Shown here one piece after another: positions 30,411 through 58,232 of a stretch of 64,000 nt of DNA. The first letter of the stretch is position 1; the number at the start of each line of letters is the position of its first letter. The stretch is taken from contig JAPEUD010000010.1 of the NCBI GenBank assembly GCA_026026165.1, positions 124,001 to 188,000 of the forward strand, read 5' to 3'. This DNA comes from Sarea resinae (Eukaryota). Position numbers and translations under genes: made by a program. The notes under the pieces were generated by a model. It searched no databases. It had not been told where the DNA came from and saw only the letters and a program-made list of their open reading frames with translations.

Positions 30411-31321
30411 TCATTGTTTCCCGCCCTTCCAAGCCATATCCGCATCTGTGCCAAGGTTAGCTCACTACCAAATCAGCATCCATTAAACTCACCAGGATGA
30501 ACTACCGGCTCCTCAATCCCCTCCCTAATTGCCTGCTTATGCTTATGATCAACCCCAAATCTCCTGTCCCTCTCGCCCACCACCCTCTCGAAGTCAAATT
30601 GTCCAGCATCAGTGAAACTCGTCATGAGCTGCGGCTGTCCCAGTGGTAGCTGATCGCCCCGATCGACCTGCCACAGATGGTACACCTTTCCATATAGCCC
30701 GACCACGTGTTCCATCTCTTTCGTTTCCGCCTGCTCCCAGACGGCATTGGGGAGCATCTCTGGGCCGGGCATGATTAGCATGCCGCTTTTCACCTCAAAG
30801 ACGTGGCTGTGCCATAGTTTGCGCTCTTCGGCGTCTAGCGTCTCGTACAATTTGGGCGAGATCATGTATTCGATGCCGATGAGGCGGGCATTGGGCGAGG
30901 GACTGTCGTATAGGACGCATTGCCGGACGTCTGCGCGTAGAGGTCAGTCAGCGCTGCCGATATGTGTACAGTTGTTCGTATGAGAGCATTCTCAAAGGGC
31001 GGAGATAGAGAAAGCCAATCATCGACCTTCATTCAGATGCGAGCAATAATGGTTCGCCTCGACACAGCGGCCCGGCTCGGAAGCATAGGCGTGAAAGGCA
31101 TTGAGATGGGCACAGATGTGTTTGGTGGGACCGAAGCTCTGCACAGGAATCATAGCATTGTCAGTGGAGGAGAAAAGACCGGTGAGTGAGCTCAAAAGAG
31201 CTCTAGAGAACCCGACCTGAGAGATAGAGGCTCCAGTATTCAAGACCGTGTTCTCGGTGGATATGGGCCCCCCGAGGGCGTCGTTGGTGACGGGCATGCT
31301 TTGTTTGTCGGGGACACTCAT
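30411..31321 (-). CDS. DUF1264 / oil-body-associated-protein-like
   Basis: [67 protein letters not shown]; last exon [11 protein letters not shown]. Confidence 0.88.
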
Positions 31322-32240
31322 GTTTGCGTCGAGATGAATGATAGCCTGTTTTTTTGCACAATCGGATTATATTTATCGCAGAACTTTAATTGAGAATTGT
31401 CTCTCGTTGTTCCAGCTAACAATACATTTGAACGTAGCAATTGCCCTGTGTTTTATGTTTGTTTTCGTTGGAGCATCCCGTCCTCAGTTGGAAAGCACCG
31501 ACGTCATGATGACCGAGGCCAGCAGGAACAGATCTCGGAACACCGTAAAATCCTTGTTACGTATCAGATGACACTTGATCCTCCAAGACAATCACACTTG
31601 CGAAGCTTTCAGTCTTTAATCGGGTTATATTGGGTGAAGTGTCTCTGGTACATAGATGGTTGGGAGTGCCATGTAGCTGTAATATGATTCCTTTCCGTAG
31701 GACTACTCGAAGTAATTTCCAAGGAAAATAGAAGAAAAGATCTATGCAAAATAAAAAAAGGAAATGCGAAAGATTTCTGTGAGCTTTGTACTAACGTGGG
31801 GATGAAATTACCTCTTTTGAACGTCGTGCACTCAAGTCTAGAATGAGAATCCATCTATCTATCTTGATAGGTACCCTGGGAGGTGAGTGCCGGATATCTG
31901 TCTCTTCGCCCCTTGGCTGTGATGAAATCACTAGGTTGGCAGGCTAGAGCTCTGCATACTCAACTACAAGGCACTTGTCTTAGAAGCACGACAACTTCAT
32001 TAGTACATACTGAATTTGAAGTGTTCGGTCGGATCCTTCGGAGTTCCAGAAACTCTGTCAACAATGGCTACGCTCGAGAGAAGCAAGAACGAGTGTCTTG
32101 TCCTCGACATCTGCAAATCGGTGAAATAAGAGATTATTTTTGACGGACTCGCTATCCCTTATCTCGTTATGAAAAACAGTTTGGGCCTATAAGTAAAAGA
32201 TTGGCTCCTAAAAGACTGGCTCATATTTCCTCTGCTCCGA

Positions 32241-40158: not shown

Positions 40159-42199
40159 CAAGAGGTACAGCGTAGACTCCACTGCTTTTAATAATGGGCC
40201 CGTTTGGCGGCCACGTTTTTCGGTGTCGCTAAGGGACGCAGTGGTGCAGGACGAGGTGCTTTTACGGGTCCAATCTCCATCTGCCATCGGTCTCCATCCA
40301 TCGAGTAGTATCAGTATTATTACTGACCAGAGTGAGTTACGGAGTACTCCGTACACTCCGTACTACCAATTGCTTGCTCCATAAGGTCCCATCAGGTAAG
40401 GCATGGGATGCAGAGCGGAGTGACGGAGTTGCAGAGTGACACTGACACGGCAAGGGCAACCCCCAATGCGTTACGCAAGCGCGCAAAGAGACACTGCGAA
40501 CGAAGTATTCGCATCCGCCATGGCCCGATTCCACCACGGAGCACTCACCCACCATCCATTCCTTCTCCGGGACTGAGTCGAGTAGTATCTGGCCAAGTGC
40601 GAAGTATGAACGATCGTCGTGTCATCGTATCATCATTCTGCGACCATCTCCCTGGTCCCTGGAAGGCTGGAAGGGGGGCCCCATGAAGCCATGAAGGGGC
40701 CGAGGGCGCTTCAGACCCTCCCTCATGGAGTCTCGCAGCTTCTACTCTACGGCTCGTACGGGAGTCACTTACGGAGTACACAGTACTTACGGAGCACACA
40801 CTTACGATGTACGATGAGTAGGTACACACCTCACTACTCCGTACCTAAGTAGGCACTGCAGCGGCCCCTGCTCCCCGCTATTCTTGTCGTAGCCCCGGCC
40901 GGCAAGGCAAAGTCAGTCGCTCTGTACGGAGTATTCGTCCAGTCCCGCACTATTGGGTTGTCTGTCCCTCATGCTCTGCAGGGGCCATCTCGGTCATCTG
41001 TCGACGCGGATCTCCCTGGTCTTTCGTGTACTCCGTACTCCGTACTATGAGTACGTACTCCATCCCCCGTAGAGAGTACTCGTAGAGAGACCCAAACACA
41101 TGCATGGAATGCAGCCATGGTCGAGCGAAGTACTCCAGAGTACTGCGCAGTATCTGCGTCCACCAAGTAGGGTCGAGCACTGGCGGCGTTTCCTCGCATT
41201 GGGTTCCTGCCCGCCCAATCCGAGTCCTTCTTACATGCCGAAGTTCGGAAAGGTACCTTTTCCCTTGCTAGGAGTGATGATGTCGACTCCGGAGTACCTC
41301 TCTGTACCTTCCGGGTTGGCACTACTCCCGAGTACTAGGACGGCTACGACGACGACGACGACTCCAGGGCTACGACCACCTACTACTGGACGCCTCCACC
41401 CGACTCTCGTTGTCATTGACACACATGCTTGCGCAGGTTTGACCGCCTTCTCTTCCCCGAAAGGGGGCTTGAGACGGCGCATGGCCGCAACGCAACGCAA
41501 TGCGGTGCAGTGCCCTCGGATGTTTTGCCGCTGAAATCGGCTTCTACTCCATACATGCAATACCCTGCGCCGTTCTGCAGCAGGGCCACACCCTTGAACG
41601 ATTGGGGCGATTGCCCGTCAGCCCGCCTGCCCGTCTCATCTGCCCCCAAACCGGCCCATTGCTTGGCTTCCGCCAGCCATGTGCTCATCCTTTGACTTTT
41701 GCTGTCTGGCCGTCTTTCCTCGGACCCGCCATGCTGATCCCTGGCGTCAAACGGCATGCCATCCGGGATCAAGCTGGGGCACTACGCAGTAGATGCCATG
41801 TAGACGCTTGCTGACTTTGCGGCGCTTCGTGTTGCAGCTAGCTAGAGGGCTCGCCCGCTGCTGAGCATCTGCCAAGGAAGAATAAAACATCTTGGTCCCG
41901 CTAATTCTTGACTGATTGATATGAGTCTCACTCTCACGCTGAAGCATATGTCCTTCCTTGGACAGACTGATCACGATTGTCATTTTAAATCTTCACAACG
42001 GGCGTCAAAGCGGTCTTTGAAGGTATAACACCTGCTGTTGACGGCCTCTTACACCGCTAAACATCTACAGATTTTGAAATCTTGCTTTGATCTGGCCAGA
42101 TTCCTTGATTTCGCTATTACCCTCATCAGCTTGTCCTTGCGGCGTCGTTTCCGCGGGTTCCACCCTACATGAGCCAGAGCCTACCGAATCCCGAAGCAA

Positions 42200-43231
42200 A
42201 TGACACCTCTCCCATCGAGCCGAAAACATTCTCAAGCTTCTGGTAATATACTAGCCTGTCGTGGTGGAAAGAGAACACGCGTGTCCAAAGCAAATACAGC
42301 ACACAGCATTTCAAAGTCACAATACCTAAGGAACCTGGTATTGTCTGCATCCTCAGCAGTCCCACGAGACGCCATGCCGAGTTGGACAAACCAAAATCGA
42401 AGCGAGCAGGAACTGTATCCTTTGGGATCACATGGAATGGTTCAAGCTCCGATGGCGACCCACGTCACAGAAACCGACATCTCAGGATATCCCATGTACC
42501 AGCAGATGGGCCATATGCAAGAAGCATGTTCGCAGCCCTATCCATTGATAGACACCTCAAGAGCCGCGCAATTTCCATCAGACCTTCCCCAGAGCTACCA
42601 TGGTGGGGCTGTGACCATGCCATCGAATCCACCCACCGATCCAGAGTGTCAGGAGGCATACTATTGCTCAGGATACATGTTTCAGCCAGTACCTGAGCAG
42701 TACTCGGCAGCTTCACAAGATAGATGGACCGATGACACTCCTTATCACAATGCTTCGAATCCGTACTCTGGATACCAATATCAGACTACTCCTATGGGTT
42801 GCTATCCACAGAGCTCCTACCCTGCCGACGACATCTCTACGCTGTACGACCCACTCACCCCAATGGAACCAGAGACTCTCAAATGTCAGTACTCTCCAGA
42901 TATTGAAGAAGAGCCCTCGTACTACCGGGCGACGGAATTCAAAGAGTCGGGAAAAGAGCTAGTGGGAATGGGTTTATACGATGAACCGGAGAAGCCGACG
43001 CCTCGAACGTCATTGTTTAACTCTTATAACGCAGCATACACAGTTGCCCGGCCTGTCGTGCCCGCTCGCGAGAGGAAAGAACTGATGGGCAAGGGCCTGG
43101 TCCTGGAAGAAACGTGGCAGCCCCCTCTCGAGGACGCAGAAGCCGAGGACGATGACGAGTCGACGGAAGGGAGCGGAGAGGAGTTGCTGCCTTCGTTGGA
43201 CGGGTCTTTTGAGGATTTTGACCAATGGTGA
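42200..43231 (+). CDS. Fungal hypothetical protein (Y/P/Q/S-rich, acidic tail; possible regulator)
   Basis: Intronless 343-aa ORF. Basic RVSK segment near the N-terminus; motif-like GKELVGMGLYD and GKGLVLEETWQPP blocks that I recognise from uncharacterised Pezizomycotina proteins. Confidence 0.75.
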   Translation: MTPLPSSRKHSQASGNILACRGGKRTRVSKANTAHSISKSQYLRNLVLSASSAVPRDAMPSWTNQNRSEQELYPLGSHGMVQAPMATHVTETDISGYPMYQQMGHMQEACSQPYPLIDTSRAAQFPSDLPQSYHGGAVTMPSNPPTDPECQEAYYCSGYMFQPVPEQYSAASQDRWTDDTPYHNASNPYSGYQYQTTPMGCYPQSSYPADDISTLYDPLTPMEPETLKCQYSPDIEEEPSYYRATEFKESGKELVGMGLYDEPEKPTPRTSLFNSYNAAYTVARPVVPARERKELMGKGLVLEETWQPPLEDAEAEDDDESTEGSGEELLPSLDGSFEDFDQW

Positions 43232-44657
43232 CGGCGCCGAACCTGCTGGCCCGATACATATATATCTCTACTTCACAGTCAATCGGCATTTGCACCCACC
43301 GAAAGCAAAGCGACCTTTGTCTCGTTGCACATACGACCGGCGATACATCTGCATACGATTGGTTGAATCACATTCGTGTTCGCTAGACGAGCTACGGATT
43401 ACCAGATTCTTCAATCCAACTTCGTCTCGACCGGGTCTACAGATCTACTCGATTTCCAGGAGCTTCCTGGAGGCAGATGGGTCGAACCTCTTGATTCGTT
43501 CGCCCACGAAAAAAAAATCAACGGCTGCGGACGCGGACATTGGGGTCAGGGCAAGACGGGAGAGAAAGAAAGGTGGGCTCAGAGAGAGGGACGAAAGCTC
43601 TGCAGACATGCAACGGAGGAGGAGCTTAGATTGAAGATGGAATGGCATGGATTGGAGGCCCTGAGAGAGAGAGAGAGATCCTGAGGGCGGAACGGCGGAA
43701 CATGCATGCAATTGTATCTGTATCTGTATCTATCTGTATCTGACGGATGGGGAGAGAATGAGGATCGAGACCAAAGTGACGGATACCTGGAAATGAAACC
43801 GAGCGTGAGACTGGCCCCCTGAAATTGTGGCTGAAGCTGGCTATGAGATTGGACATGGGGGTCAAGTACTCTAGAGGGCCTGGGAGCAGCCCCAACAGGA
43901 GGCGCCACATGGGCCGCGTGGAGATGAAACTGGCTGGCTACCTACGGAGTAAATAGCATGGCTCCCTATACCGTGTTAGAGCTATATCAATTAAATCACT
44001 TCCATCCCCCTTCCTTCCTCTTGCTAGTGCTACCGTCTCCGTACTCTATTGATCTTGTCTACATCGTTCATATACGTCGCGAAATAGGTAAGATACCATG
44101 CATCTGGGTTGAATTTGAATTTGAGAGTGGAGATATGTGTGTAGATTAAAGCTCGGTATGAAATGCGACACCAGAACACGACAACTCACACCAAGCCATC
44201 GATCAGATGTCCGAATGCGCGTCTGCCGTGGACGGATAAATGGATGTATGGAGGACGTAGGTAAGGTAGGGTAGGTAAGGTCTAGTAGTACATTGTTTCG
44301 ATTTGGAAGTTTTTGGTAGTGTGGTTTCTTCGGCCGGCCCTCCCGACAATAATTGGCCCCCCACCAGAGAGATCAAAACAGAGAGTTTATACAAGCGGTG
44401 AAGATATCGAACCGGGCCTATTCCCCTTCTTACATACCAGAAGCAGAGAGATTCGAGGCCCTGCAATCCTGGATTTTCGTTTTGGCAGTTTCTTGTTTCC
44501 GATTCTCCATCCTGACATCTTCCTTTCTTCGCTCCGTTCTCCTTTTCCAAACACAGACGCGTAAGAGCGACTGTGTTCCACCAAGCGCCCACTCAGCCAG
44601 TTCCCACCAAGGTCGTCCCGACACCGATTCGAGCCGATCAGGTCAGAGCAGACTGGC

Positions 44658-46236
44658 TTACTTCAGAATGCGAGTGACGAGACCGGTGGCGACGGTGCGG
44701 CCACCCTCGCGGATGTTAAAGCGTTGACCGGTCTCCAGAGCGACGGGATTGTAGATGTCGCAGACCATCTCGACGTTGTCGCCGGGCATGACCATCTTGG
44801 AGTCGGCCTCTTCGGTGCCTTCGGGCCAGTTGAGGCAGGCAGCTTCATCTGCAGGACACAAGCAATGTAAGCGGGGCTATCCTCTTAGACAGAATGAGCA
44901 AAAGACCGGCTAGACTTACCAGCAGTGCGGATGAAGATTTGCGGTCGGTAGTTTCCGTGGAAGCCGGTGTGGCGACCGCCTTCCTCCTTCGTGAGCACGT
45001 ACATGGAGACCAAGAACTTCTGGTGAGCCTTGGCGCTTCCCGGGACGGCGATGATCATCCCACGCTTGACGTCCTCGCGGCGAACTCCACGGAGCAGCAG
45101 ACCGGAGTTGTCGCCGGCGCGCGACTCGTCACAGGACTTCTTGAAGGTTTCGATATCGGTGACCTTGGTCTTGATGGGGGTGGCGTTCTTGCCGACGAGC
45201 TCGACCTCGGAATCCTTCTTCAGGACACCACGCTCAACACGGCCAGAGGCCACGGTACCGCGACCGGGAATGGAGAAGACGTCCTCGACAGACATGAGGA
45301 AGGGCTTCTCAAGCTCACGCTGCGGCGTTGGAATCCACTCGTCCACGGCGTTCAAGAGCTCGTCAATCTTCTCAACACCGATCTCGGGTTGTCTATTCTC
45401 AAGAGCACAAAGGGCGGAGCCGAGGATGATGGGGGTCTCGTCGCCCTCGAAGCCGTAGGAGGAGAGGAGCTCGCGCATTTCCATTTCGACGAGTTCCAAC
45501 ATCTCCTTGTCCTCAATCGCATCAACCTTGTTGACGAAGACGACAATCTTCTGAACACCGACTTGGCGAGCGAGCAGAAGATGTTCCCGGGTTTGCGGCC
45601 TGCAAGACTGTCAGTCATCGAGACCTGGTTCACCAGGCAGCTAGAATCCATACATTTGACCATCGGAAGCAGCCACGACGATGATAGCACCATCCATGTT
45701 GGCAGCACCAGTAATCATGTTCTTAATGTAATCAGCGTGACCGGGGCAGTCGACGTGCGAGTAATGCCTCGCGTCGGTCGAGTATTCGATATGTGCTGTC
45801 GAGATGGTGATACCACGTTTCCGCTCCTCGGGGGCCTTGTCAATGGCTCCATACTCCAGGAAACTGGCGTAGCCCTTCTCCGCCTGTCTCTTGGTGATGG
45901 CCGCCGTCAAAGTAGTCTGCGAATATGATGAGTTTGAATCCCAATTGACTAGTTTGATGGATCCAATTCTTACCTTTCCGTGGTCGACGTGGCCAATGGT
46001 ACCTGATGATCCGTTAGTTCTCCACGTCTCGAGTATATCTCAGGACCCGGACGAGATGGCTTACCGATATTGACGTGAGGCTTGGACCGCTCGAAGGCCG
46101 TGGCCATCCCTCGGCATGCATCGATGACGCGGGCAGCATTTTGAGGTCTGCCCAGCGCATACTGCACGGGGTTTTGCCGCAGACCGGCACGGCTGCTGCG
46201 GAGAAAAGGAACAACGTACCGAGTGAAGGTCGACAT
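44658..46236 (-). CDS. TUF1: Mitochondrial elongation factor Tu
   Basis: Arg-rich presequence; [71 protein letters not shown]. Confidence 0.98.
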
Positions 46237-46923
46237 GATGAACAGCCTTCGAGGAGTGGAAAGGTGGGGGGGAAGAAGAAAAGGGAAATGGAGGGCGGAC
46301 GAGAACGGGAAGAGAGGTCTTCACAGCTGGAGTCGCCTCGAGTCTTGTCGCTCACGATAAAATTCTTAGCGTCGGCCGATGGCCTGCGCTGGTCACGTGC
46401 TCCCGCATCTTCCGAGCTTTCCCAGCCGGCGGTTCCCCCTTTCTCCGGACTAACAAACACGGGGAACCCCAATGATGCACGCACAGTGTACTTTTGTAGT
46501 CCTGTTGCGGGCCAACTAGATGAGATGAATTACTTTTCAGTGCTCCTACTGCGACGTATATGATCCAACCCTCTACCTACATTTTACATGAGTCTATAGT
46601 AGTGATACATTTGTGCCCGGAGTTTCGAAAAATGCCAAACACCCTCTAAAATAACATGAAGGAAGTAGAGATGACCAGATTACTCCGTGGATTCGTTTCA
46701 AAATTGGCCCAAGGAGAGTCTGCTCTGCTCGTGCTCACTGCAGGCCTTGTGAGATAACGGGTCCGTACAGCCAGCATCGTGATAACCAGACAGACTATCA
46801 GCGTCTGCTTGTCTGACTGTTATGTTGAGAAACCGAAGCGATAGCAATCCCCCTCATAGTTGCAAGGAATCCAGAGGTCGACCTCCGCAAGACCTCGGAT
46901 ATGCAGCCATGGCCATCAGCGCC

Positions 46924-47631
46924 CTACTTCTTCGATGGCCCTTCGAAATAAAGCGTGACCAGACCCAATATTTTCCCCTCCATGCTCTTCAATTCCTTGG
47001 TACCTTCCACTGCCATGGCCCGTTCTTTGATCTGTTTCAGCACGGCCTCAGCCTCCTCCGGCGAAGCTCTCCTGCCCTTGCCCTTTTTCTTCGATGCTAA
47101 GATGATCTCCACACGACGTCCCTGTTCGAGGAATTGCTGCATCTTGTCCAATCGGTGGCCCAGATCGTTCGGATCAATCGCCCAATTCAATTCAAGTTGC
47201 TTGCTTGAGCTTGACGGAGCCTTCGTTTTGGCCTTTGACTGCTTGCGTAATGACTCCCGAAATCTCGCTTTGCTAATGATCCTGCAAACGGGTGCTCGGT
47301 CTGCCTCTGGTGGGGCGACTTGAACGAGCTGGTAGGTCTTGTGATCAAAAGAGCGAAGAGCATCCTTGAGAGGCGTCACTGGATGAAAGGTGCCACTGTC
47401 GTCCACGATATGGATTTCCCTCGCCTCAATTTCATCGTTGACTGGCGGACGTTGGGGTTGAACGTAGTTTCGTCTTTGAGTGGACCTCGGAAAGTAAGAC
47501 TGAAAATTACTGCAAGGGTACTGTAGCGGTCGAGAAACGGAACAGATGGAAGGTCGAGGACGTTCAATTGAATGAACGACCACTTTATAGAGAGCTTCAG
47601 CGGCGCTGCTGATATGGCGCACCGAATGCAT
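46924..47631 (-). CDS. Mitochondrial translation initiation factor 3 (Aim23-like)
   Basis: First ATG 47631 with presequence-like N-terminus; IF3-N-like (NDEIEAREIHIVDD...PVCRII) and IF3-C-like (KQLELNWAIDPNDLGHRLDKMQQFLEQGRRVEI) segments. Confidence 0.85.
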   Translation of the reverse strand: MHSVRHISSAAEALYKVVVHSIERPRPSICSVSRPLQYPCSNFQSYFPRSTQRRNYVQPQRPPVNDEIEAREIHIVDDSGTFHPVTPLKDALRSFDHKTYQLVQVAPPEADRAPVCRIISKARFRESLRKQSKAKTKAPSSSSKQLELNWAIDPNDLGHRLDKMQQFLEQGRRVEIILASKKKGKGRRASPEEAEAVLKQIKERAMAVEGTKELKSMEGKILGLVTLYFEGPSKK

Positions 47632-47933
47632 GTCGCGAAGGCGGGGAGGCGGTTCGAGGGTGAGGGCGTCTCTAAGATTTTTGGTTCGGAAGGGTCGCGA
47701 TGAATGACGAAGCGGAGCTCTGTCAACACTTAGGACTGCGTCCGGTTGTGCACGGACCACATTATGGAACCAAGCACATCCAACCCTCCCTTCGAAATCT
47801 ACTGCGCACTTCGTAGTACTCTGGAATCATCCAGCCGTCTCGACATCTTCAGCAACGCAACATTGCTGGGCGTCAAATCTTTGCGACTTCCCCGCCCCTT
47901 GATGTATGCGCACACAATGACTTCACCCCCGAA

Positions 47934-48542
47934 ATGAGTCCTGCATTCACGGGCTTTGCGAAGCTCTTCTGGCCGTCTGGGCAATTCTTCGGGCATCCTT
48001 TTCGGACCCTCTGGACCACAGCACAGGTCCTATTTCTCGGGCACTTTATCAATCAATATGTCTTCACCATCTCTCCTACATTTGGGCCCAGCATGTTGCC
48101 CACGATAGCAGCTTCAAATGACTGGATCCTCACGTCGAGACTACACCGGAGAGGGAAAGGCATACGAGTGGGCGATGTTGTCAGCGTCAAACATCCGATC
48201 ATGTTGGGCGAAGGAGCTATTAAAAGAGTGATCGGGATGCCTGGCGACTTCGTCTATCGAGACTCCCCCGCTTCGGGGAACGATGTCATGCTTCAGGTGC
48301 GCCATCACTCTATCTACCACGGCCGCCCAGAGTCACCACCTCGTTGCCTGACTGATAACTCTTTCCAGGTCCCAGAAGGTCACTGCTGGGTAATCGGAGA
48401 TAACCTTCCTCATTCGAGAGATTCTCGGGTCTACGGACCTATCCCATTAGCTTTGATCAGAGGGAGAGTCGTTGCTCGAATAATCCCTTGGAATACTCGA
48501 AAATGGATGGAGAATGGATTGCAGTCACGTATGAGAGAGTAA
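47934..48542 (+). CDS. IMP1: Mitochondrial inner membrane peptidase subunit 1
   Basis: S26 peptidase motifs GPSMLPT, IKRVIGMPGD, QVPEGHCWVIGDN..SRDSRVYGPIPLALIRGRV. Intron 48297-48368. Confidence 0.92.
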   Translation: MSPAFTGFAKLFWPSGQFFGHPFRTLWTTAQVLFLGHFINQYVFTISPTFGPSMLPTIAASNDWILTSRLHRRGKGIRVGDVVSVKHPIMLGEGAIKRVIGMPGDFVYRDSPASGNDVMLQVRHHSIYHGRPESPPRCLTDNSFQVPEGHCWVIGDNLPHSRDSRVYGPIPLALIRGRVVARIIPWNTRKWMENGLQSRMRE

Positions 48543-48678
48543 TCAACGCCCTTTTTCGTGCGCCTGGAACCGCTGCGAGAACATCAACCCGTGGTTCCAA
48601 AGTTTCATTCAATGTACACCAAATGTACAGTAGATATAATACAAGTCTATTAGCGACCATTCAGATGTTGAACCTGCT

Positions 48679-49989
48679 TTAACGATATCGCGCGCCATCT
48701 TTCTTTTTGTATGGGAGAGGCTCAACCCGCTTCCTTCGGAACTCCACATCGGCGCCATCAACGCCTGCTCTTTCCATGACCCCTGCTGTTCCTTCATCCC
48801 ACTGCGAACGGAACATGTTCACGCCGACGGGACGCATTGAGTGCTTATCAACAAAACTTCGGAGATTGAAACCATCCCTCTGTAATTTCTCACGGACCGT
48901 CGTGACGTCGACAGTCTCTCCAGCTCTTTGTTGCAGCACGAAGACGGAGAGCCGGTGGTACGGGCTGCCCTTTTGAGCGAAGGGAGGTAACCACGGTAGC
49001 AGAATCTGAGTATCCTTGGATAATCTAGACAGCGGAAGTGAGGTCGAGGTAGGAGCGATTGGAATGTTCGCGGCAAGGAAATGACACCGATAATCAAACC
49101 CGTCCGTTGCAAGATTAGGAACGTCGGAGTCGACCACAGCGACACTGACCAGCCTTTCACCCTTGTCAAAGACTTGCACGTCAAGCTTCACCGGAACCTC
49201 ACTGACTCGAGAGTCGACGAATTGGCCAGGCTGCACATTGTGACGACGAAAAGCAAGGCGAACATCGGCAGTCGGGTCAATGTGAGGAAGGACATCTGGT
49301 ACGACGTTCATTTGGGAGATTCGTTGCACGATGAGATTCCGATGGTAAGAACGCCACTGCCGATCGGCAAGGTAACGGTATATTGGTCTGTTCATGTCGC
49401 CTGGAGCCAGAAGGTGAGCCATATGATCCTGTGTTCAATTAAGGTACGACTTACCTTGTCCGTCTTCAAATCTCTTTTTGATCATGGGGTCATTGATGTC
49501 TGCTAAGATCTTGAGCTCCTCCAGGTGCTTATGCATGCTCTTCAACCGCTGCTGCTTCTCCTTCTCTCCACCGCTCACTGCAGCATCCTGCGCCTGGACT
49601 TTTGCTATCCTGGCTCTTTGCACCGCAATCTGTTCCAGCTTCTCTTGTCGATCTGCCTGCAAAATCTTCCGCGCTTCTTGAAAACATTGGTAGGGTAGCT
49701 GCTCAAAGGGAATATTTGCAGAGTCCTGTAGGGCAGCCCGCCGTCTTCGAGACCCAATGGGCATTATGCCAGCTTTCATGAGCTTTTCTTCCTGGGTGCG
49801 CTTGATAACGAGAGAGGGATCAAGCTCAGCCGTGTTGGCTGGAGCGGGCTCTGGGGAGGCCTCATCGTAGGCAGTTGAAGCTGTTTGAAATTTGCGGATG
49901 GCGGCTTGACCGAACTGTCTTGACGGGGGTGCAAGGCCTTGTCGTAGATATGTGATCAAGGGCTGTACAGCTTTCTTGGTCCCTGCCAT
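48679..49989 (-). CDS. MRPL35: Mitochondrial ribosomal protein mL38 (YmL35, PEBP domain)
   Basis: [46 protein letters not shown]-like VDSDVP and QKGSPYHR. One intron. Confidence 0.93.
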
Positions 49990-50309
49990 TGTCGCTGTCG
50001 CTGAAAGCCTTGAAGGCGTACTGTTCTTTTATTTGTGCTGGTGTTGCTTTTCGGATTGCAAGCATTCGTCCATTTTCCACTGTACTCCGGAGTAGAAGTA
50101 ACCCCGTACTCAGTAGACGAGCTTGCTCGGGAAAGTTTTTGAGCCGCAGAAATTGCGCGCGCAGCTGCAAAGCCTTACCGTACCTACCATGTACCCACCT
50201 GTCTTCCATTCAAACGCTTCATGCCGTACAGAACGAAGCTGGCCCAATCTTTATAGCCACCACCACGAAAACACGTCCAATCGGCCTCGTAACAGCGAGC
50301 GCTTTCAGG

Positions 50310-51303
50310 ATGGCGTCAAGGGGGTTTTCGGGCTCTATTAAGAGCCTGAAGGAAGTCGCTTCAATGACCGGCGTGGCAAAGGATAGTCTCCGAGTATGCA
50401 AATCCAGTCGATTGATTATCATGTCGTTTTCTGACACCGGAAACAGCACCAATGCATAGCGCCACACATGTCGCGGACGATGGCCACCGAGACTCGTGTA
50501 CCGCAGGGCAAGGCCGCTCAATCTTCCTCTACTGCTCATGATCGAGGGTCGCCAATTGATCTCTCCCCTTCAGGTAAGAGGCTCTCACATAGCTTGCAAG
50601 CCTATCTCTGATGCTTAGTACCAAAGTCCTGACTACCATCTACAACTTCCCAACTATGGAGCCAATACGTTTTGAGCATTACCCTTCGAACCATCTGTTT
50701 CTCCCTCTTCGCCGGGACATCCTTCATAAAGCCGTCGTATTCGAGGGCGATAATACGCGGCAGGGCACAGCGAGCACAAAGTGGCGAGGAGACATCCACG
50801 GTAGTGGCCGGAAAATTCGACCGCAAAAGGGCACTGGAAGAGCTCGACTGGGAGACAGAAAATCTCCAATGCTCAGGGGTGGAGGTGTTGCTTTTGGCCC
50901 GCATCCAAGAGACTTTGGCACCGACCTACCCAGGAAAGTCTACGATTTGGCCTGGAGAACTGCTCTCAGCTACCGATACCGCAAAGGAGAACTCATTGTT
51001 GTCGAAGATGGAGCCGAGATTGAGTATCCGAAAACGAGATTTGTCAAGCAGATTTTCGAGAAGAACCACTGGGGCAACGCAGATGGACGGTCATTGGTGG
51101 TGACCCAGACTCCGCGAAAGAATCTATTTGCGGCGTTGCACGATGCAGGCGAAGACGGAAGGGTCCTGGAAGAATTGGATGTTGATGTAAAAGATTTGCT
51201 TGAATTAGGCAGAATCATTATTGAGAAGAGCGCTTTGGATGGGATATTGCAGGATCACCAGAGCGATCTGGTCAGAAGCGTCCCAACTGCTGCAAGTCTA
51301 TGA
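50310..51303 (+). CDS. YML6: Mitochondrial ribosomal protein uL4m
   Basis: MASRGF.. presequence; introns 50394-50446 and 50574-50626; L4 motifs RRDILHKAV, RQGTASTKWR, PQKGTGRARLG, RGGGVAFGPHPRD. Confidence 0.94.
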
Positions 51304-51711
51304 AGGTAGTCTGTATAAAATGTATCAATATAATCTTCTTTACCATCTGTCAATACTTTGTTCTTGTGCGTACTAGAAAGATGTTCTATGTGATACGTGC
51401 AATGGCCACCGATATGGGCAGTATCCTCCAGCTGCCCGCTATTACAATGACGCATCTCGGCGAATCGCTTTTCGACATTTTTGCTCTGCCGATACTGTAT
51501 GAAGTACGTAGTTGTTGGAGTCAAAAGTCTGGACACGCCCTTTTACCTCGCTCAGGCGTGGACGGGGTGCTCAACCTTTTGAATCGCACCCCACAAAATA
51601 CCTCGGGACGTCAATCCGGCAACCATCCATCACACTTCAGGGCTCCGCGCACCTACACCAACGCTTCCTATTCTCTGCTTGTTTTTGTATCATAGAGCGA
51701 TTCTTTCATTC

Positions 51712-53362
51712 ATGTTTCTCAGACCGTGCTGCGCCAGAGCAGCTGCGCCGCTGAGCAGAAGCTCGCTGGTCCGCCCAGCAGTGATGCCTCTGAGAGCTAA
51801 GATTCTCCACCCGGCCATTGCAGGGCGAGCACAGGTCAGGATTGCCCCAATCCCGTCAATTCAAAGACTGACTTATATTTTGAAGATGTCGACCTCTGCC
51901 GAAACTATCAAGGAGCTTCCCGGAGACGAGGCTGATGATGTGCTGTTCAACACGATATACGGCGTGCGAACGATCGAATTGAATCGGCCCAAGAAGCTCA
52001 ATTCCCTCAATGGATCTATGGCGCGCAAGATCGTTCCACGACTTCAGGTATGTCTCCAAGCAACATCACAACAGGCTTTCTCTTACACCTCAAAGGAATG
52101 GGAAAAATCCCAGCTTGCGAACGTCATCATCATAAGAGGTGCTGGTGAAAAGTCATTCTGTGCAGGTGGAGACGTGGCTGCCCTCGCAAAATCTAATACA
52201 GAAGGCCCCAAAGGGCAACAAACTTCGAAGGAATACTTCGGATTGGAATACAAGCTGGACCACCTAATAGCTACATACTCAAAACCCTATGTTGCTTTCA
52301 TGGATGGCATTACTATGGGAGGGGGCGTCGGACTTAGCGTGCATGCGCCGTTCAGGATAGCCACAGAGAGGACGCTCTTTGCTATGCCGGAATCAACCAT
52401 CGGATTCTTTCCGGATGTGGGAGGAAGCTTCTTTCTGCCCCGATTAGACGGCGAGGTGGGAACCTACCTGGCGCTAACGAGCGAGCGATTGAAGGGTGTA
52501 AATGCATTGTACGTTCCTTGCCTTGCCCCAGTCGATATCCGGCGAATCTGACAACCTGAACAGTTATTCCGGAGTCGCAACTCACTATATCCATTCCTCG
52601 TCTCTCCCCGACCTAGAAGCCCGTCTCTCCGAGCTGGTGTTCAAGGATTACGCTACACTTCAAGAACGTAACAAGGTCATCGACTCTACTATTGAGGAGT
52701 TCGTGACAGGCCTGCCCCACGACGAGCCAATCCATCTTGCAGGCGAGACCCGTGAGGCTATCGACAGGTGTTTCAAGTACTCAACCATCGAAGAGATCAT
52801 TGCGGCTCTCAAGAAGGAAGGCACCGAATGGGCCTCAAAGACCATCGAAACTCTCCATCAGCGCTCGCCTACCTCTGTCCGCGTCGCTCTTCGCCAAATG
52901 CGCCTAGGAAGCCGGTGGAACATTGCCGAAACCTTCCAGCGCGAATATCATATCGCGGCGAAGTTCATGGAGCACCCCGATTTTGTCGAGGGCGTTTCAG
53001 CCCGGCTGTTGCGCAAGCCAGCCGAGACGCCAAAGTGGCAGCCAGCCAGTATCGAAGAATCCGACGACAGTGTGACGGAGAAGTTCTTCACGGTCGAGGG
53101 GGACAAGCGGCTACAGCTTCTCAACGAAGGTGCCGGCACCGATTATGCGGAATACCCGCATGCTTGGATTGGCTTGCCGAGTGAGCGGGAGGTTGAGCGG
53201 GTGGTGCGTGAGGGAGACAAGACGCGCGCGCAGGTGTTGCAGCACTTTCTTCGGGCTCGCAACGGGAAAACGGGAGTGCGGGAGAAGGTGGAGGAGATCC
53301 TGCAGCGCAAGACCAGGGCCAGCGGGGCTGGCGATAAGGCAAGTTGGATTGCGGAGGATTAG
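51712..53362 (+). CDS. EHD3: Mitochondrial 3-hydroxyisobutyryl-CoA hydrolase (Ehd3/mS47)
   Basis: LNRPKKLNSL, FCAGGDV, MDGITMGGGVGLSVH, FAMPESTIGFFPDVG, SPTS, DFVEGV..L..K..PKW. Presequence; three introns. Confidence 0.95.
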
Positions 53363-54285
53363 TATATAGACTCTTAATCTGCACATCATAGTATTCCATT
53401 GTGACGAAAGCAGCCTTGTACCTTCTCCGAGATATGCATCTGATCTGTGCTCGGGCGAGCCTTTGACACGAGAAAAGTGTTGCATTGTGGACCTTGGAGC
53501 GATCTTGCTTCGAGGATATATAACGCATGCTCCACCAGAGTCCAAAAATACGTATAATCTGAAATGGCTATGACACGACCACGCGACTGATTTATGGCTC
53601 CGCTAGCTGTCCGACTTCGGATTGAAGGTATCTAGGTATTCGAGAGACATCAATTGCCTCTTCATCACTCGCAGGACGGTTCAACAGCTTCAATCCTGGC
53701 AATCTCTCTCCCCACTGTTTATTTGAACCATCTGTAAATTGATTCAGTCCGATGCATATTATGAGTAGAGACCAATCTGTGTGTAGATGTTCGCTTCTCA
53801 TCGGCCCGTCAGCCACGTCGATTGCTGAGCATTCAGCCGTACGGCGGTACAGGTGTCGGTCGGACTTACAGACGGCCTAAGCCCAAAGTGTCCTTTATAG
53901 TCCGGTTTCCCCAGACTCACAATTATTCAATCAACTCCGGTCCCGGCAACCCTAAGGTAGGTAAGCAAGCTGCCAATAATTCCTCAAATTTGTAGCCTCC
54001 TATAATTTTGTCTTGCGTCAACTATAGCTCTCTGTCGTGTGTGAATGCCCGTGCCTCTTTTGAAAGTCCTACCTGTCTCTCGCAATTGGGTTCCATCTCG
54101 TACCTATTTGCAGCTGGAAGACGTTTGGGCGGTGAGCGCGCGAACAGCTTAAGTCGCTGGAGCTTCCTCGTCATTGACCTCGTCATTGACAGCTCGCGCA
54201 ATACGACTGCCGCCTTGTTTCCTTTCTAGACCCTGAGTGTGGCTGCTGGGCACTTATTTTCGGCTGGACGGGAGGGTTTTGCAAT

Positions 54286-55501
54286 ATGGCTACGACTACT
54301 GGGTGAGAGCTTTGCTTGGTACTTGTTTCACTCTTGCTGACAGCTCCGATCAGCGCCTTCATTGCTGGGGGCATCGCGGCCTGCGGAGCTGTGACCGTGA
54401 CGCACAGTTTCGAGACGGTGAAGATTCGGTATGGGAAACCATAAGATGCGGTTCTAGGGAGCGTGGCTGATACGAATCAACCAACAGATTACAATTGCAG
54501 GGCGAGCTGCAGGCGAAGAAGGATGCTCCGCGCATGTATAAAGGTGTCTTGCACGGCGTTGGCACCATCATCAAGAATGACGGAGTGAGGGGACTGTATC
54601 GTGGACTCAGTTGCGCGGTTAGCAATTCTCTGGACCGCGTGGGACATCTCCAGGCTGATGCATTTGCCGTGTGATAGTATATCTACCAGATGATCCTCAA
54701 TGGCTGTCGATTAGGCTTCTATGAGCCCATACGAACCACTCTGACATCGGCCATCTTCAAGGATTCGCATGTGCAGTCCCTCGGCGTGAACATCTTTTCC
54801 GGAGCGACCTCCGGTATCCTCGGCGCCGCCGCCGGTTCTCCCTTCTTCCTGGTCAAGACTCGATTACAGTCATATTCACCATCTTTACCCGTGGGCACGC
54901 AACATCACTACCGGGGGGCTTGGGATGGGCTGCGAACGATACAACGGCAGGAAGGGATCAGAGGACTCTATCGGGGCGTGGAGGCGGCGATGATCAGGAC
55001 TGGTTTCGGGAGCTCCGTACAGCTCCCTACCTATTTCTTCGCGAAGAGAAGGATGATCAGGCACCTGGGGATGGATGAAGGTCCTCTTTTGCATCTTGCC
55101 AGTAGCACCGCGAGTGGCTTTGTGGTCTGCTGTGTCATGCACCCACCAGGTAAGAGATGCCGAAAAAAGTCGACGCATGAGGTATTGACCGACTGACCGC
55201 CGTCTTAGACACCGTGATGTCGCGCATGTATAACCAGACGGGCAATCTCTATCACGGCGCATTCGACTGCTTCTATAAAACTGTCAAGACGGAGGGGCTC
55301 CTTGCTGTCTACAAGGGATTCTTCGCTCATCTGGCGAGAATTCTACCACATACAGTATGCCAAGCCCTGCGACTCTCCGCGTCAGAAATATGAACTGACT
55401 CGCTTTAGATCTTGACTCTCAGCTTGGCAGAGCAGACGAATAAATTGATACGAAGAGCTGAGGATCGAATACTACCGTCATCCATCAAGGAAATAATATA
55501 A
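54286..55501 (+). CDS. OAC1: Mitochondrial oxaloacetate/sulfate carrier
   Basis: AFIAGGIAACGAVTVTH, ETVKIRLQLQGEL, NGCRLGFYEPIR, SPFFLVKTRLQS, GTQHHY, DTVMSRMYNQ, ARILPHT; ends IKEII* at 55501. Confidence 0.94.
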
Positions 55502-57176: not shown

Positions 57177-58232
57177 AAAGTGCTTTCGTGCGATGCAGGC
57201 CAAGGCTGATCAGGCCTCGTTACACAGATCTGGCAGATGTACAAGCAAGCCGAGGCTTCCTTCTGGACCGCCGAGGAAATCGATCTCTCAAAGGATCTCC
57301 ACGACTGGCACAACAAATTGAATGATGATGAACGTCACTTCATCTCCTACGTCCTTGCATTCTTCGCCGCGTCCGATGGGATCGTCAATGAGAACCTCGT
57401 CGAGCGATTCAGCGGCGAGGTTCAAATCCCAGAGGCACGATGCTTCTACGGTTTCCAGATCATGACCGAGAACATCCACTCCGAGACGTATTCCCTCCTC
57501 ATCGACACATACATCGCCGAACCGACGCAGCGGACGTTCCTCTTCGAGGCCATCGACAACAGTAGGTCACCACTTCGTCACGAGTGTTTGAGACATCGAA
57601 GCTGACCTGAGAAAACAGTCCCTTGCATTCGCAAGAAGGCCGACTGGGCCATCAAGTGGATCCAAGATCCAAACTCGACATTTGCTTCTCGTCTAGTTGC
57701 ATTTGCCGCCGTTGAGGGTATCTTCTTCAGCGGATCCTTCGCCTCGATCTTCTGGCTGAAGAAGCGCGGTCTCATGCCCGGCCTGACCTTTTCAAATGAG
57801 CTGATCTCCCGTGACGAGGGTCTGCACACCGACTTTGGCTGCTTGCTTTTCTCTCACCTCAATAATCGGCCGAGCAAGGAATTAATCGAGTCGATCATCG
57901 TCGAGGCCGTTAGCATCGAACAAGAGTTCCTGACTGAAGCCCTACCCGTCGCTCTATTGGGCATGAATCAAGACTTGATGAAGCAATACATCGAGTTCGT
58001 CGCCGATCGCCTGTTACTCGTGCTCGGCAACAAGAAGTACTATGGCTCGACGAACCCCTTCGACTTCATGGAGAACATCTCGCTACCCGGTAAGACCAAC
58101 TTCTTCGAGAAGCGTGTCGGCGATTACCAGAAGGCGGGCGTCATGGCGAGCACTACGAAGAAGGACGGCACGGAGGACAGCGAAAAGAAGAACGAGAACG
58201 GCGGCAACTTTTCATTTGATGAAGATTTCTAG
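57027..58232 (+). CDS. RNR2: Ribonucleotide reductase small subunit
   Basis: [75 protein letters not shown]-terminal FSFDEDF*. Two coding introns. Confidence 0.98.

What the first reader, a model, noticed from the sequence alone, without database searches (positions are those of the whole stretch)
44658..55501. Seven consecutive nuclear genes for mitochondrial proteins: candidate mitochondrial translation/biogenesis cluster
Seen: TUF1(-), mtIF3(-), IMP1(+), MRPL35(-), YML6(+), EHD3(+) and OAC1(+) lie back to back in 10.8 kb, with spacers of only 136-923 bp and no intervening non-mitochondrial gene. Established: EF-Tu, IF3, mL38 and uL4m belong to the mitochondrial translation apparatus; yeast Ehd3 is also mitoribosomal protein mS47; Imp1 processes mitochondrially translated pre-Cox2. 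Six of the seven therefore touch one process. Inference: such a run is unlikely by chance and may be a selected, co-regulated housekeeping cluster rather than a metabolic one. I cannot tell from the sequence whether it has been described before.
Basis: partly seen in the sequence, partly recalled or inferred. Interest (0 to 1): 0.85.

Follow-up and report, generated by a model that had tools for sequence, protein, structure and literature searches.

The report
Conserved mitochondrial-translation gene block in fungi
Seven neighbouring nuclear genes for mitochondrial proteins are really there, and six of them, mostly parts of the mitochondrial protein-synthesis machinery, form a compact block that has stayed together in several classes of ascomycete fungi, which is unusual for housekeeping genes, although whether it is kept for joint regulation is untested.

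Summary
Window 44658-55501 carries, back to back, genes for mitochondrial EF-Tu, IF3, an inner-membrane (S26) protease subunit, mL38, uL4m, the HIBCH/mS47 protein and a mitochondrial carrier. I found no other gene or RNA between them.

Related DNA shows three layers.
- The head-to-head pair uL4m/mL38 is adjacent in 27 of 35 testable lineages from five classes.
- HIBCH/mS47, the protease and IF3 are the other recurrent neighbours of mL38, in varying arrangements.
- The six-gene block from mS47 to EF-Tu is intact in two metagenomic lineages (one complete, one cut off at mL38) that look Lecanoromycetes-like. Accession or locus-tag spacing is consistent with it in Peltula, Pycnora and Lasallia.

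The carrier and both outer flanks are not shared, even with the closest long contig.

Leotiomycetes and Sordariomycetes keep only the pair. A non-mitochondrial bZIP gene is as persistent a neighbour as the mitochondrial ones. No shared promoter motif was found.

Best reading: an old, compact synteny block plus one chance neighbour. Selection for co-regulation is possible but not shown. The literature searches I ran found no description of it.

The parts
44658..46236 (-). Mitochondrial elongation factor Tu (TUF1-like). Five exons, 444 aa. One 57-nt intron (45917-45973) is in frame and hidden inside an ORF.
   Evidence: Pfam GTP_EFTU, D2 and D3. Spliced model. The best named homologue is a 444-aa 'translation elongation factor Tu' of a Sarea resinae MAG, 98% identical over the exon queried. 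The N-terminus is arginine-rich with no acidic residue in the first 37 residues (read).
46924..47631 (-). Mitochondrial translation initiation factor 3. Single exon, 235 aa.
   Evidence: IF3_N 50 bits, above its cut-off. IF3_C 26.3 bits and mIF3 23 bits are both below their cut-offs. PDB: bacterial IF3 at 2.8e-13, mammalian mitochondrial IF3 at 1.3e-5. A 235-aa protein identical to this model is on record.
47632..47933 (.). Head-to-head spacer of 302 bp between the start codons of IF3 and the protease gene. Candidate bidirectional promoter.
   Evidence: Coordinates. The same divergent arrangement occurs in L001-L003 and L008. Promoter activity is inferred, not shown.
47934..48542 (+). Mitochondrial inner-membrane protease subunit (S26 family; IMP1 or IMP2 not resolved). 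178 aa, with one in-frame 72-nt intron (48297-48368).
   Evidence: Peptidase_S26 1.3e-24. Atlas nearest clusters are named 'Mitochondrial inner membrane protease subunit'. PDB gives only bacterial signal peptidase I.
48679..49989 (-). Mitoribosomal protein mL38 (yeast MRPL35). 418 aa, one 54-nt intron (49401-49454). It lies tail to tail with the protease gene, 136 bp between the stop codons.
   Evidence: PBP domain. Neurospora mitoribosome chain 6ywe_1 at 7.9e-82 and yeast mL38 chain 5mrc_1 at 2.6e-28. Homologues are named YmL35/mL38.
49990..50309 (.). Head-to-head spacer of 320 bp between the start codons of mL38 and uL4m. Candidate bidirectional promoter and the most conserved junction of the block.
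   Evidence: uL4m lies head to head within 1 kb of mL38 in 27 of 35 testable lineages. The only enriched words in this spacer are start-codon contexts.
50310..51303 (+). Mitoribosomal protein uL4m (yeast YML6). 295 aa with two introns (50394-50446 and 50574-50626). The alternative start at 50468 gives 260 aa.
   Evidence: Ribosomal_L4 6e-48. Neurospora chain 6ywe_D at 5.2e-77 and yeast YmL6 chain 3j6b_D at 7.2e-35. Model. The first exon is uncertain.
51712..53362 (+). 3-hydroxyisobutyryl-CoA hydrolase / mitoribosomal protein mS47 (yeast EHD3). 498 aa, three introns (51835-51885, 52048-52095, 52509-52563).
   Evidence: ECH_2. The Neurospora mitochondrial small-subunit chain 6yw5_88 matches at 8.1e-74, and yeast mS47 chains 5mrc_88 and 8d8l_8 at about 1e-15. 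Model. The N-terminus looks like a presequence.
54286..55501 (+). Mitochondrial carrier family protein (reader: OAC1; subfamily not resolved). About 306 aa, five introns, last intron uncertain. A lineage-specific neighbour, not part of the conserved block.
   Evidence: Mito_carr. The nearest solved chains are UCP2 and UCP1. The Atlas gives only a generic carrier name. Model. No match in any of the 80 related loci.

Best explanation
The run is an old, compact block of six nuclear genes plus one recent neighbour.

The six genes serve mitochondrial gene expression and its products. In window order they are EF-Tu, IF3, an inner-membrane protease subunit, mL38, uL4m and HIBCH/mS47. The block predates the split of several classes of leotiomyceta. 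The mitochondrial carrier gene was brought alongside it by a rearrangement in this lineage.

The block is built from two head-to-head pairs whose start codons are only about 300 bp apart (IF3 with the protease; mL38 with uL4m). It also has a tail-to-tail pair 136 bp apart and two short tandem spacers.

I infer that each head-to-head pair is transcribed from a shared promoter region. I also infer that the tight spacing leaves few places where a breakpoint would be harmless. The block would then decay more slowly than its surroundings and break mainly at its longer spacers.

Shown here: gene identities, adjacency, and conservation in other lineages. Inferred: shared promoters, co-expression, and the reason for retention. 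How five mitochondrial-translation genes came together in the first place is not explained by this reading.
For: Gene identities.

Pair conservation: the metagenome scan with an mL38 alignment gave 80 loci, which reduce to 58 lineages at 95% nucleotide identity.
- uL4m is head to head with mL38, within 1 kb, in 27 of 35 lineages with at least 900 bp of 5' flank.
- These are Dothideomycetes-like 6/6, Leotiomycetes-like 11/11, Sordariomycetes-like 2/2, Eurotiomycetes-like 5/10 and Lecanoromycetes-like 3/6.
- Two more lineages have uL4m at 3.6-6.8 kb, and six have none.
- Class labels are my assignment from the best named mL38 hit.

Other recurrent neighbours:
- The protease is tail to tail with mL38 in 10 of 37 testable lineages (8 Eurotiomycetes-like, 2 Lecanoromycetes-like).
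- mS47 is beside uL4m in 6 of 29, and elsewhere within 10 kb in 2 more.
- IF3 is within 10 kb in 9 lineages (HMM search).
- In an unbiased clustering of all ORFs within 10 kb of mL38 in 26 representatives, these four were the most recurrent neighbour families.

Whole block: L002 and L003 carry mS47, uL4m, mL38, protease, IF3 and EF-Tu with the same order, strands and similar spacers. L008 carries mL38 to EF-Tu.

Flanks differ: L002's outer neighbours are bZIP, cytosolic RPS29, DNA polymerase alpha subunit B and CRAL/TRIO. None has a match anywhere in the 64-kb window. The window's outer genes (carrier, RNR small chain, SRP9/21 and the 42-kb ORF) have no match in L002 or in any other locus.

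Named genomes, by accession or locus-tag distance (taxonomy, except Lasallia and Kuettlingeria, whose class I recall):
- EF-Tu to mL38: 3 apart in Peltula sp. (Lichinomycetes), the same as in the window. 5 apart in Psora crenata, 8 in Blastenia crenularia and 10 in Kuettlingeria erythrocarpa (Lecanoromycetes).
- EF-Tu and IF3: adjacent in Pycnora praestabilis (Candelariomycetes). In Lasallia pustulata they are adjacent in one annotation and 4 apart in the other.
- IF3 to mL38: 2 apart in Oleoguttula mirabilis and in Dothideomycetes sp. NU459.

Context from papers:
- Conserved fungal gene pairs tend to have short intergenic distances, and conserved divergent pairs tend to be functionally related (abstract and passages of PMC2871058).
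- Only two blocks of at least 5 genes were conserved across 18 Dothideomycetes (section 9 of PMC3516569).
Against: - The block is not kept everywhere. No protease, IF3, mS47 (bar one copy at 8 kb) or EF-Tu lies within 10 kb of mL38 in 11 Leotiomycetes-like or 2 Sordariomycetes-like lineages.
- EF-Tu is far away or on another contig in the following. By tags or accessions: Dothideomycetes sp. NU459, Chlorociboria, Paecilomyces, Oleoguttula (89 apart) and Bathelium (210 apart). By different contig lengths: Sclerophora, Glonium, Lepidopterella, Diplodia corticola, Xylogone, Aplosporella, Seirophora scorigena and Gyalolechia fulgens.
- IF3 and mL38 are on different contigs in Geoglossum umbratile.
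- Even the head-to-head pair can be split. A KP4-like gene, and in one case also a DDE transposase, sits between uL4m and mL38 in two Lecanorales-like lineages. Five Eurotiomycetes-like lineages and one Lecanorales-like lineage (L053) lack uL4m upstream.
- Two annotated fusions suggest another 3' neighbour in Botryosphaeria (Mei4-like) and Ikaeria (FAD_binding_4).
- A non-mitochondrial bZIP gene persists beside the block in 5 of 26 representatives from two classes. Persistence is therefore not special to mitochondrial genes.
- The neighbours retained longest are also those closest to the anchor, as neutral decay would predict.
- In the named genomes only distances in accession or tag numbers were seen, not the genes in between.
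- No genome-wide background was available.
Confidence: 0.55

Rival explanations
1. A positively selected co-regulated cluster. The genes were brought together and are kept together because joint transcription balances the supply of mitochondrial translation components. The means would be shared promoters and a common chromatin domain. This would be a housekeeping counterpart of fungal metabolic gene clusters.
For: - Five of the six block genes act in mitochondrial translation and the sixth processes its products. Such a density is expected 6e-6 to 4.5e-5 times per genome by chance.
- IF3 stays within 1.2-4.8 kb of the uL4m/mL38 pair in all 6 Dothideomycetes-like lineages, although its side, strand and distance vary.
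- mS47 stays within 1.6 kb in a lineage where it has moved to the other side of mL38 (L006/L010/L077).
- Both flanks differ between the window and L002 while the block is intact.
Against:
- No word of 7 or 8 bases is shared by 4 of the 5 upstream regions.
- No conserved word other than start-codon context occurs in 27 uL4m/mL38 spacers.
- No Puf3-type motif lies in the block.
- Whole classes have dissolved the block without any visible replacement. Neighbours in those loci are unrelated genes: GMC oxidoreductase, CSN5, ATG16, Rox3, RhoGAP and CSL4.
- The bZIP neighbour persists equally well.
- After allowing for about 67 functional classes of similar size and the many genomes read by this scan, a chance origin is not excluded (my estimate).
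Confidence: 0.3
2. Pure coincidence and neutral history. An ancestral stretch happened to hold several mitochondrial genes and is simply decaying at the ordinary rate. Slowly rearranging (mostly lichen-forming) lineages still show most of it.
For: - Retention falls off with distance from the anchor gene. The order is uL4m, then protease and mS47, then IF3, then EF-Tu.
- Non-mitochondrial bZIP, importin-alpha-like and DUF1264 genes also recur across classes.
- Genes of filamentous ascomycetes are known to stay on the same chromosome while order and orientation are shuffled (abstract and passages of PMC3219968). This fits EF-Tu lying 89 and 210 genes from mL38 on the same contig in two Dothideomycetes.
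Against: - The functional density is improbable under random order.
- Both flanks of the block have been exchanged between the window and L002 while six genes kept their order, strands and spacing.
- The uL4m/mL38 pair is kept in 27 of 35 lineages of five classes. By contrast, within one class only two blocks of at least 5 genes survive (PMC3516569).
Confidence: 0.15

Closest known systems
Evolutionarily conserved divergently transcribed gene pairs in fungi (Davila Lopez et al. 2010, PMC2871058; abstract and passages including Table 1 seen)
   Same: These are head-to-head genes with short spacers, functionally related and conserved over long distances. The uL4m/mL38 and IF3/protease pairs fit this description.
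   Different: Here two such pairs are joined with two more genes into a six-gene block devoted to one organelle's translation. Neither pair appears in the parts of Table 1 that I saw. The full table and supplements were not read.
Adjacent co-regulated gene pairs of ribosome biogenesis and other families in yeasts (PMC3500266: search listing and abstract only; PMC6001612: passages)
   Same: Members of one housekeeping regulon sit side by side more often than chance allows.
   Different: Those are mostly pairs, and co-expression was measured. 'Mitochondri' does not occur in the main text of PMC6001612. Here there are six genes and no expression data.
Conserved syntenic blocks in Dothideomycetes (Ohm et al. 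2012, PMC3516569; section 9 read)
   Same: Blocks of five or more genes survive the reshuffling typical of filamentous ascomycetes and are proposed to be selected.
   Different: Those two blocks are class-specific. One is functionally unrelated and one is made of dehydrogenases and reductases. The present block crosses classes but is reduced to three genes in Dothideomycetes. Tables S4 and S5 were not read.
Fungal metabolic gene clusters (for example the DAL cluster mentioned in PMC2871058, and secondary-metabolite clusters)
   Same: Non-homologous genes of one process are clustered in a eukaryote.
   Different: There is no pathway of successive steps, no cluster-specific regulator or transporter in the window, and the genes are constitutive housekeeping genes. 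These clusters are named from the cited passage and from general knowledge. Nothing was tested here.
Bacterial str and S10 operons (tufA close to rplD) and the infC operon (recalled, from no call)
   Same: EF-Tu, L4 and IF3 genes are of bacterial descent, and tuf and rplD are close neighbours in many bacteria.
   Different: The fungal genes are separate, intron-bearing nuclear units on both strands, interleaved with eukaryote-specific mL38. By my recollection the yeast orthologues are unlinked. A relic of an operon is very unlikely and was not tested.

Membership tests
Mitochondrial EF-Tu (TUF1) | The three EF-Tu domains, with closest relatives being fungal mitochondrial EF-Tu | tested here: met
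   Pfam GTP_EFTU, D2 and D3. Top fungal hits are 83-98% identical, several named 'Elongation factor Tu, mitochondrial'.
Mitochondrial EF-Tu (TUF1) | N-terminal mitochondrial presequence | tested here: inconclusive
   The model's N-terminus is basic and free of acidic residues for 37 residues. No targeting predictor is available.
Mitochondrial IF3 | IF3 N- and C-terminal domains | tested here: inconclusive
   IF3_N is above its cut-off. IF3_C (26.3 against 34.8 bits) and mIF3 (23 against 33.8 bits) are below theirs. PDB alignments to bacterial IF3 cover both domains at 2.8e-13.
mL38 (MRPL35) | PEBP-fold protein matching the mL38 chain of solved mitoribosomes | tested here: met
   6ywe_1 at 7.9e-82, 5mrc_1 at 2.6e-28, human mL38 at about 1e-6.
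uL4m (YML6) | L4 domain, closer to mitoribosomal than to bacterial or cytosolic L4 | tested here: met
   6ywe_D at 5.2e-77 and yeast YmL6 at 7.2e-35. The best bacterial L4 scores 5.9e-28.
mS47 / HIBCH (EHD3) | ECH_2 hydrolase matching the mS47 chain of fungal mitoribosomes | tested here: met
   6yw5_88 at 8.1e-74, yeast mS47 at about 2e-15, human HIBCH at 7.2e-21. The dual role is stated in PMC7947838. Whether a second paralogue exists in this genome could not be tested.
IMP1 (as opposed to IMP2) | Orthology to inner-membrane protease subunit 1 | tested here: inconclusive
   S26 domain. The Atlas name does not give the subunit number. PDB holds only bacterial enzymes.
OAC1 (oxaloacetate carrier) | Orthology within the carrier family | tested here: inconclusive
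   Mito_carr. The nearest solved chains are UCP2 and UCP1. The Atlas name is generic.
Co-regulated functional gene cluster | Adjacent genes of one process | tested here: met
   Five of six block genes act in mitochondrial translation.
Co-regulated functional gene cluster | Arrangement conserved beyond the surrounding genes | tested here: inconclusive
   Met in the comparison with L002 and for the uL4m/mL38 pair. No genome-wide background was available, and the block is broken in several classes.
Co-regulated functional gene cluster | Correlated expression | not testable with these tools
Co-regulated functional gene cluster | Shared cis-regulatory element | tested here: not met
   No shared 7- or 8-mer in the five upstream regions. 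Only start-codon context is enriched across 27 pair spacers. No TGTAHATA in the block. These are crude word counts, so a degenerate motif could be missed.

The most novel reading that the evidence does not exclude
The six-gene block is a selectively maintained expression unit for mitochondrial protein synthesis. It would be a rare non-metabolic, housekeeping gene cluster of fungi, kept since before the split of Sareomycetes, Lichinomycetes, Candelariomycetes, Lecanoromycetes and Eurotiomycetes. Its sub-blocks are the parts that selection cannot let go. These are the uL4m/mL38 pair everywhere, IF3 held beside the pair in Dothideomycetes despite reshuffling, and mS47 and the protease in Eurotiales.
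Probability: 0.3. Interest if true: 0.7.

Novelty: new member of a known kind. Interest (0 to 1): 0.5.

Why it matters
Gene order in filamentous ascomycetes is shuffled quickly. Long-lived clusters are known almost only for metabolism, mating type and a few gene pairs.

A block of six housekeeping genes for one organelle's translation system, traceable across several classes, would be a convenient natural test of an old question. Do eukaryotes keep functionally related genes together for joint regulation, or do tight spacing and shared promoters alone explain it?

Nature has already supplied the controls:
- lineages with the whole block;
- lineages with only the pair;
- lineages where a KP4-like gene or a transposon has split the pair.

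The block is also a practical marker. The uL4m/mL38 head-to-head pair is a robust synteny anchor for fungal contigs in metagenomes.

Tried and rejected
- Whole genome of the window: none is held. Searching the records behind the loci is not possible either. No permutation test on the real gene order and no genome-wide synteny background could be run.
- RNA evidence: the look-up of sequencing runs listed one metatranscriptome (X2) holding 27% of the sampled words. No statement on expression, introns or co-expression rests on reads, and the unlaid share is no evidence.
- Earlier findings of the scan: five look-ups (one search was malformed) gave nothing that bears on this locus.
- Promoter and 3' motifs: TGTAHATA occurs 3 times in the window and never in the block. 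Word counts gave only start-codon context or nothing above shuffles.
- Subfamily names: IMP1 versus IMP2 and OAC1 versus other carriers stay unresolved after Atlas and PDB look-ups.
- A ribosomal S14 hit next to EF-Tu in L002 looked like a further mitoribosomal gene. Its sequence reads like cytosolic S29, as judged by eye and from recall, so it was dropped.
- First splice search with a strict donor pattern failed. It was replaced by a scored search and hand curation.
- Operon-relic idea (tuf near rplD in bacteria): considered and set aside as very unlikely. It was not tested.
- Literature: searches found no paper describing this block or a uL4m/mL38 pair. Supplementary tables of PMC2871058 and PMC3516569 were not read and could list it.

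Full report
WHAT IS THERE

The window is intron-bearing fungal nuclear DNA. No whole genome is held for it.
- EF-Tu (minus strand)
- IF3 (minus)
- S26 peptidase (plus)
- PEBP/mL38 (minus)
- L4 (plus)
- ECH_2 (plus)
- a mitochondrial carrier (plus)

Spliced models made by script give complete frames of 444, 235, 178, 418, 295 (or 260), 498 and about 306 residues. Four introns are in frame and hidden inside ORFs.

Coding regions are separated by 687, 302, 136, 320, 408 and 923 bp. No Pfam-bearing ORF, tRNA or Rfam family lies between them.

The neighbours outside are not recognisably mitochondrial. One is a low-complexity ORF without a family (42173-43631). The other is the small chain of ribonucleotide reductase (57210-58229).

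WHAT THE GENES ARE

Against solved structures:
- The PEBP protein matches the mL38 chain of the Neurospora mitoribosome (7.9e-82) and of the yeast mitoribosome (2.6e-28).
- The L4 protein matches uL4m (5.2e-77; yeast YmL6 7.2e-35).
- The ECH_2 protein matches the 3-hydroxyisobutyryl-CoA hydrolase chain of the Neurospora mitochondrial small subunit (8.1e-74) and yeast mS47.
- IF3 aligns over both domains with bacterial IF3 (2.8e-13) and weakly with mammalian mitochondrial IF3.

The statement that yeast Ehd3 is both a likely active hydrolase and mS47 stands in passages of PMC7947838.

Two names remain unverified. The protease is a 'mitochondrial inner membrane protease subunit', but subunit 1 or 2 is open. 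The carrier is nearest to UCP2 and UCP1 among solved chains, but its subfamily is open.

The closest named EF-Tu is from a Sarea resinae MAG, 98% identical over the exon. That species belongs to Sareomycetes.

CHANCE

With 10,000 genes in random order:
- A run of seven or more mitochondrial genes is expected 0.0002-0.015 times, for a mitochondrial share of 8-15%.
- Six consecutive genes with at least five from a class making up 1-1.5% of genes are expected 6e-6 to 4.5e-5 times.
- Six consecutive genes with at least four from such a class are expected 0.0015-0.007 times.

The shares are my assumptions. There are about 67 classes of that size, and this scan read many genomes. A chance origin of a four-of-six cluster is therefore not remote. 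A five-of-six cluster remains unlikely.

RELATED DNA

A search with the large mL38 exon found homologues named YmL35/mL38 in many classes, the best at 76% identity. An alignment of 25 of them was used to scan metagenome contigs.
- 226 stretches encoded a relative. The best 80 were kept, each with up to 10 kb on either side.
- tblastn with exon peptides of 17 window genes, given as 20 ORF pieces, mapped their neighbours.
- Loci were reduced to 58 lineages at 95% identity of the mL38 exon.
- Each was given a class label from its best named mL38 hit. The labels are my assignment and are approximate.

Results:

1. uL4m lies head to head with mL38, within 1 kb, in 27 of 35 lineages that have at least 900 bp of 5' flank.
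   - Dothideomycetes-like 6/6, Leotiomycetes-like 11/11, Sordariomycetes-like 2/2, Eurotiomycetes-like 5/10, Lecanoromycetes-like 3/6.
   - Two more lineages have it at 3.6 and 6.8 kb. There a KP4-like gene, and in one case also a DDE transposase, has been inserted.
   - Six lineages have none.

2. The protease lies tail to tail with mL38 in 10 of 37 testable lineages (8 Eurotiomycetes-like, 2 Lecanoromycetes-like). In one more it is 8 kb away.

3. mS47 lies beside uL4m in 6 of 29 testable lineages, and elsewhere within 10 kb in two. One of these has it on the other side of mL38.

4. IF3 was searched also with an HMM built from 88 homologues. It lies within 10 kb in nine lineages.
   - In three Lecanoromycetes-like lineages it is beside the protease. 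In two of these it is head to head within 0.3 kb of it. In the third the protease-IF3 pair lies about 8-9 kb from mL38, with both genes on one strand.
   - In all six Dothideomycetes-like lineages it lies 1.2-4.8 kb from the pair, with varying side and strand.

5. EF-Tu follows IF3 only in L002/L003 and L008.

6. The carrier, the reductase, SRP9/21, DUF1308, the GOST protein and the 42-kb ORF match no locus.

An unbiased clustering of all ORFs of 26 representatives, the window included, showed uL4m (24 of 26), mS47 (9), IF3 (8) and the protease (8) as the most recurrent neighbours of mL38. Next came a bZIP gene (5 representatives, two classes), an importin-alpha-like gene (3) and a large gene with a RhoGAP neighbour (3-4).

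Pfam on seven long loci found no further mitochondrial-translation genes.

THE SIX-GENE BLOCK

L002 is a 170-kb contig whose mL38 is 72% identical to the window's. Its EF-Tu and IF3 are closest to Pleopsidium among named proteins. It reads:

bZIP | mS47, uL4m, mL38, protease, IF3, EF-Tu | cytosolic S29, DNA polymerase alpha subunit B, CRAL/TRIO

The block has the window's order, strands and similar spacers. None of L002's outer genes has a match in the 64-kb window, and none of the window's outer genes occurs in L002. The six genes thus form a unit between two exchanged flanks. The carrier is a neighbour only in the window's lineage.

NAMED GENOMES

Locus tags and accession numbers of homologues give distances in gene numbers (taxonomy; Lasallia and Kuettlingeria placed from recall).

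EF-Tu to mL38:
- 3 in Peltula sp. (Lichinomycetes), as in the window
- 5 in Psora crenata
- 8 in Blastenia crenularia
- 10 in Kuettlingeria erythrocarpa
- 89 in Oleoguttula mirabilis
- 210 in Bathelium mastoideum
- over 1,000 in Dothideomycetes sp. NU459, Chlorociboria aeruginascens and Paecilomyces variotii
- on contigs of different length in eight further species

EF-Tu to IF3:
- adjacent in Pycnora praestabilis (Candelariomycetes)
- adjacent in Lasallia pustulata in one annotation, 4 apart in a second

IF3 to mL38:
- 2 in Oleoguttula and in Dothideomycetes sp. NU459, which fits the IF3-uL4m-mL38 form seen in the contigs
- on different contigs in Geoglossum umbratile

The genes in between were not seen. 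Two fused gene models point to other 3' neighbours of mL38 in Botryosphaeria and Ikaeria.

READING

The data fit an ancestral order bZIP, mS47, uL4m, mL38, protease, IF3, EF-Tu. This order is older than the split of several leotiomyceta classes.
- It is kept whole in some lineages: the window, two Lecanoromycetes-like metagenomic lineages, and probably Peltula.
- It is kept in part in Eurotiales (mS47 to protease) and in Dothideomycetes (IF3 with the pair).
- It is reduced to the uL4m/mL38 pair in Leotiomycetes and Sordariomycetes.

The architecture offers a simple mechanism for slow decay: two head-to-head pairs about 300 bp apart, one tail-to-tail pair 136 bp apart, and short tandem spacers. 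Conserved fungal pairs are known to have short spacers, and conserved divergent pairs tend to be functionally related (PMC2871058).

Against a special status:
- The best-kept neighbours are also the nearest ones.
- A non-mitochondrial bZIP gene persists too.
- Whole classes have lost the block.
- Even the pair has been split by insertions.

For a special status:
- The block is functionally dense.
- The flanks were exchanged around an intact block.
- Within Dothideomycetes only two blocks of five or more genes survive (PMC3516569, section 9), against a background of fast reshuffling (PMC3219968).

Co-regulation is untested.

NOVELTY

Five literature searches found no description of this block or of the uL4m/mL38 pair. 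The parts of Table 1 of PMC2871058 that I saw do not list it. Supplements were not read.

I file it as a new member of a known kind: conserved neighbourhoods of functionally related housekeeping genes. It is of moderate interest, and it would rise if a matched genome-wide background or expression data showed selection.

Noticed in passing
L015:7712-8260 (-) and L031:7697-8662 (-); L031:3634-4440 (-): In two Lecanorales-like lineages a KP4 killer-toxin-like gene sits between uL4m and mL38. In L031 there is also a DDE_1 transposase. Together they split the otherwise conserved head-to-head pair by 3.6 and 6.8 kb.
   Followed up: partly
L002:3529-4824 (+), L015:837-2048, L027:4511-5668, L016:2-1249, L029:682-2076: A bZIP transcription-factor gene is a recurrent neighbour of the block. 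It lies next to mS47 in three Lecanoromycetes-like lineages and near uL4m in two Leotiomycetes-like lineages. It is absent from the whole 64-kb window. Whether it regulates the neighbouring genes is unknown.
   Followed up: partly
window 30476-31366 (-); L040:12694-13434, L057:12357-12824, L062:12169-12627: A DUF1264 gene lies directly beyond the protease gene in three Eurotiales-like loci. In the window it lies about 13 kb beyond EF-Tu. The wider region may therefore be anciently linked.
   Followed up: no
window 45917-45973, 48297-48368, 51835-51885, 52048-52095: Four introns are in frame and free of stop codons. Plain ORF reading therefore runs through them and inserts 16-24 spurious residues into EF-Tu, the protease and HIBCH/mS47.
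   Followed up: yes
window 42173-43631 (+): The gene-sized ORF next to EF-Tu is rich in Ser, Pro, Gln and Tyr. It has no Pfam family and no match in any related locus. Its nature and its location in the cell are unknown.
   Followed up: no
L047, L049/L051, L019, L044, L072: One group of Eurotiomycetes-like lineages has no uL4m upstream of mL38 (up to 9.6 kb seen), so the pair was broken there. Their best mL38 hit is the unnamed P0052. L051 has a large ArAE_2_N/FUSC_2 membrane protein gene instead.
   Followed up: partly
P0018 (Botryosphaeria dothidea, 936 aa), P0106 (Ikaeria aurantiellina, 701 aa): These annotated mL38 proteins are fused to a Mei4-like part and to a FAD_binding_4 part. They are probably merged gene models that reveal a different 3' neighbour.
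   Followed up: partly
window 34389-35414 (-): An NAD kinase gene lies 9 kb beyond EF-Tu. Whether it is the mitochondrial (POS5-like) or the cytosolic form was not examined.
   Followed up: no
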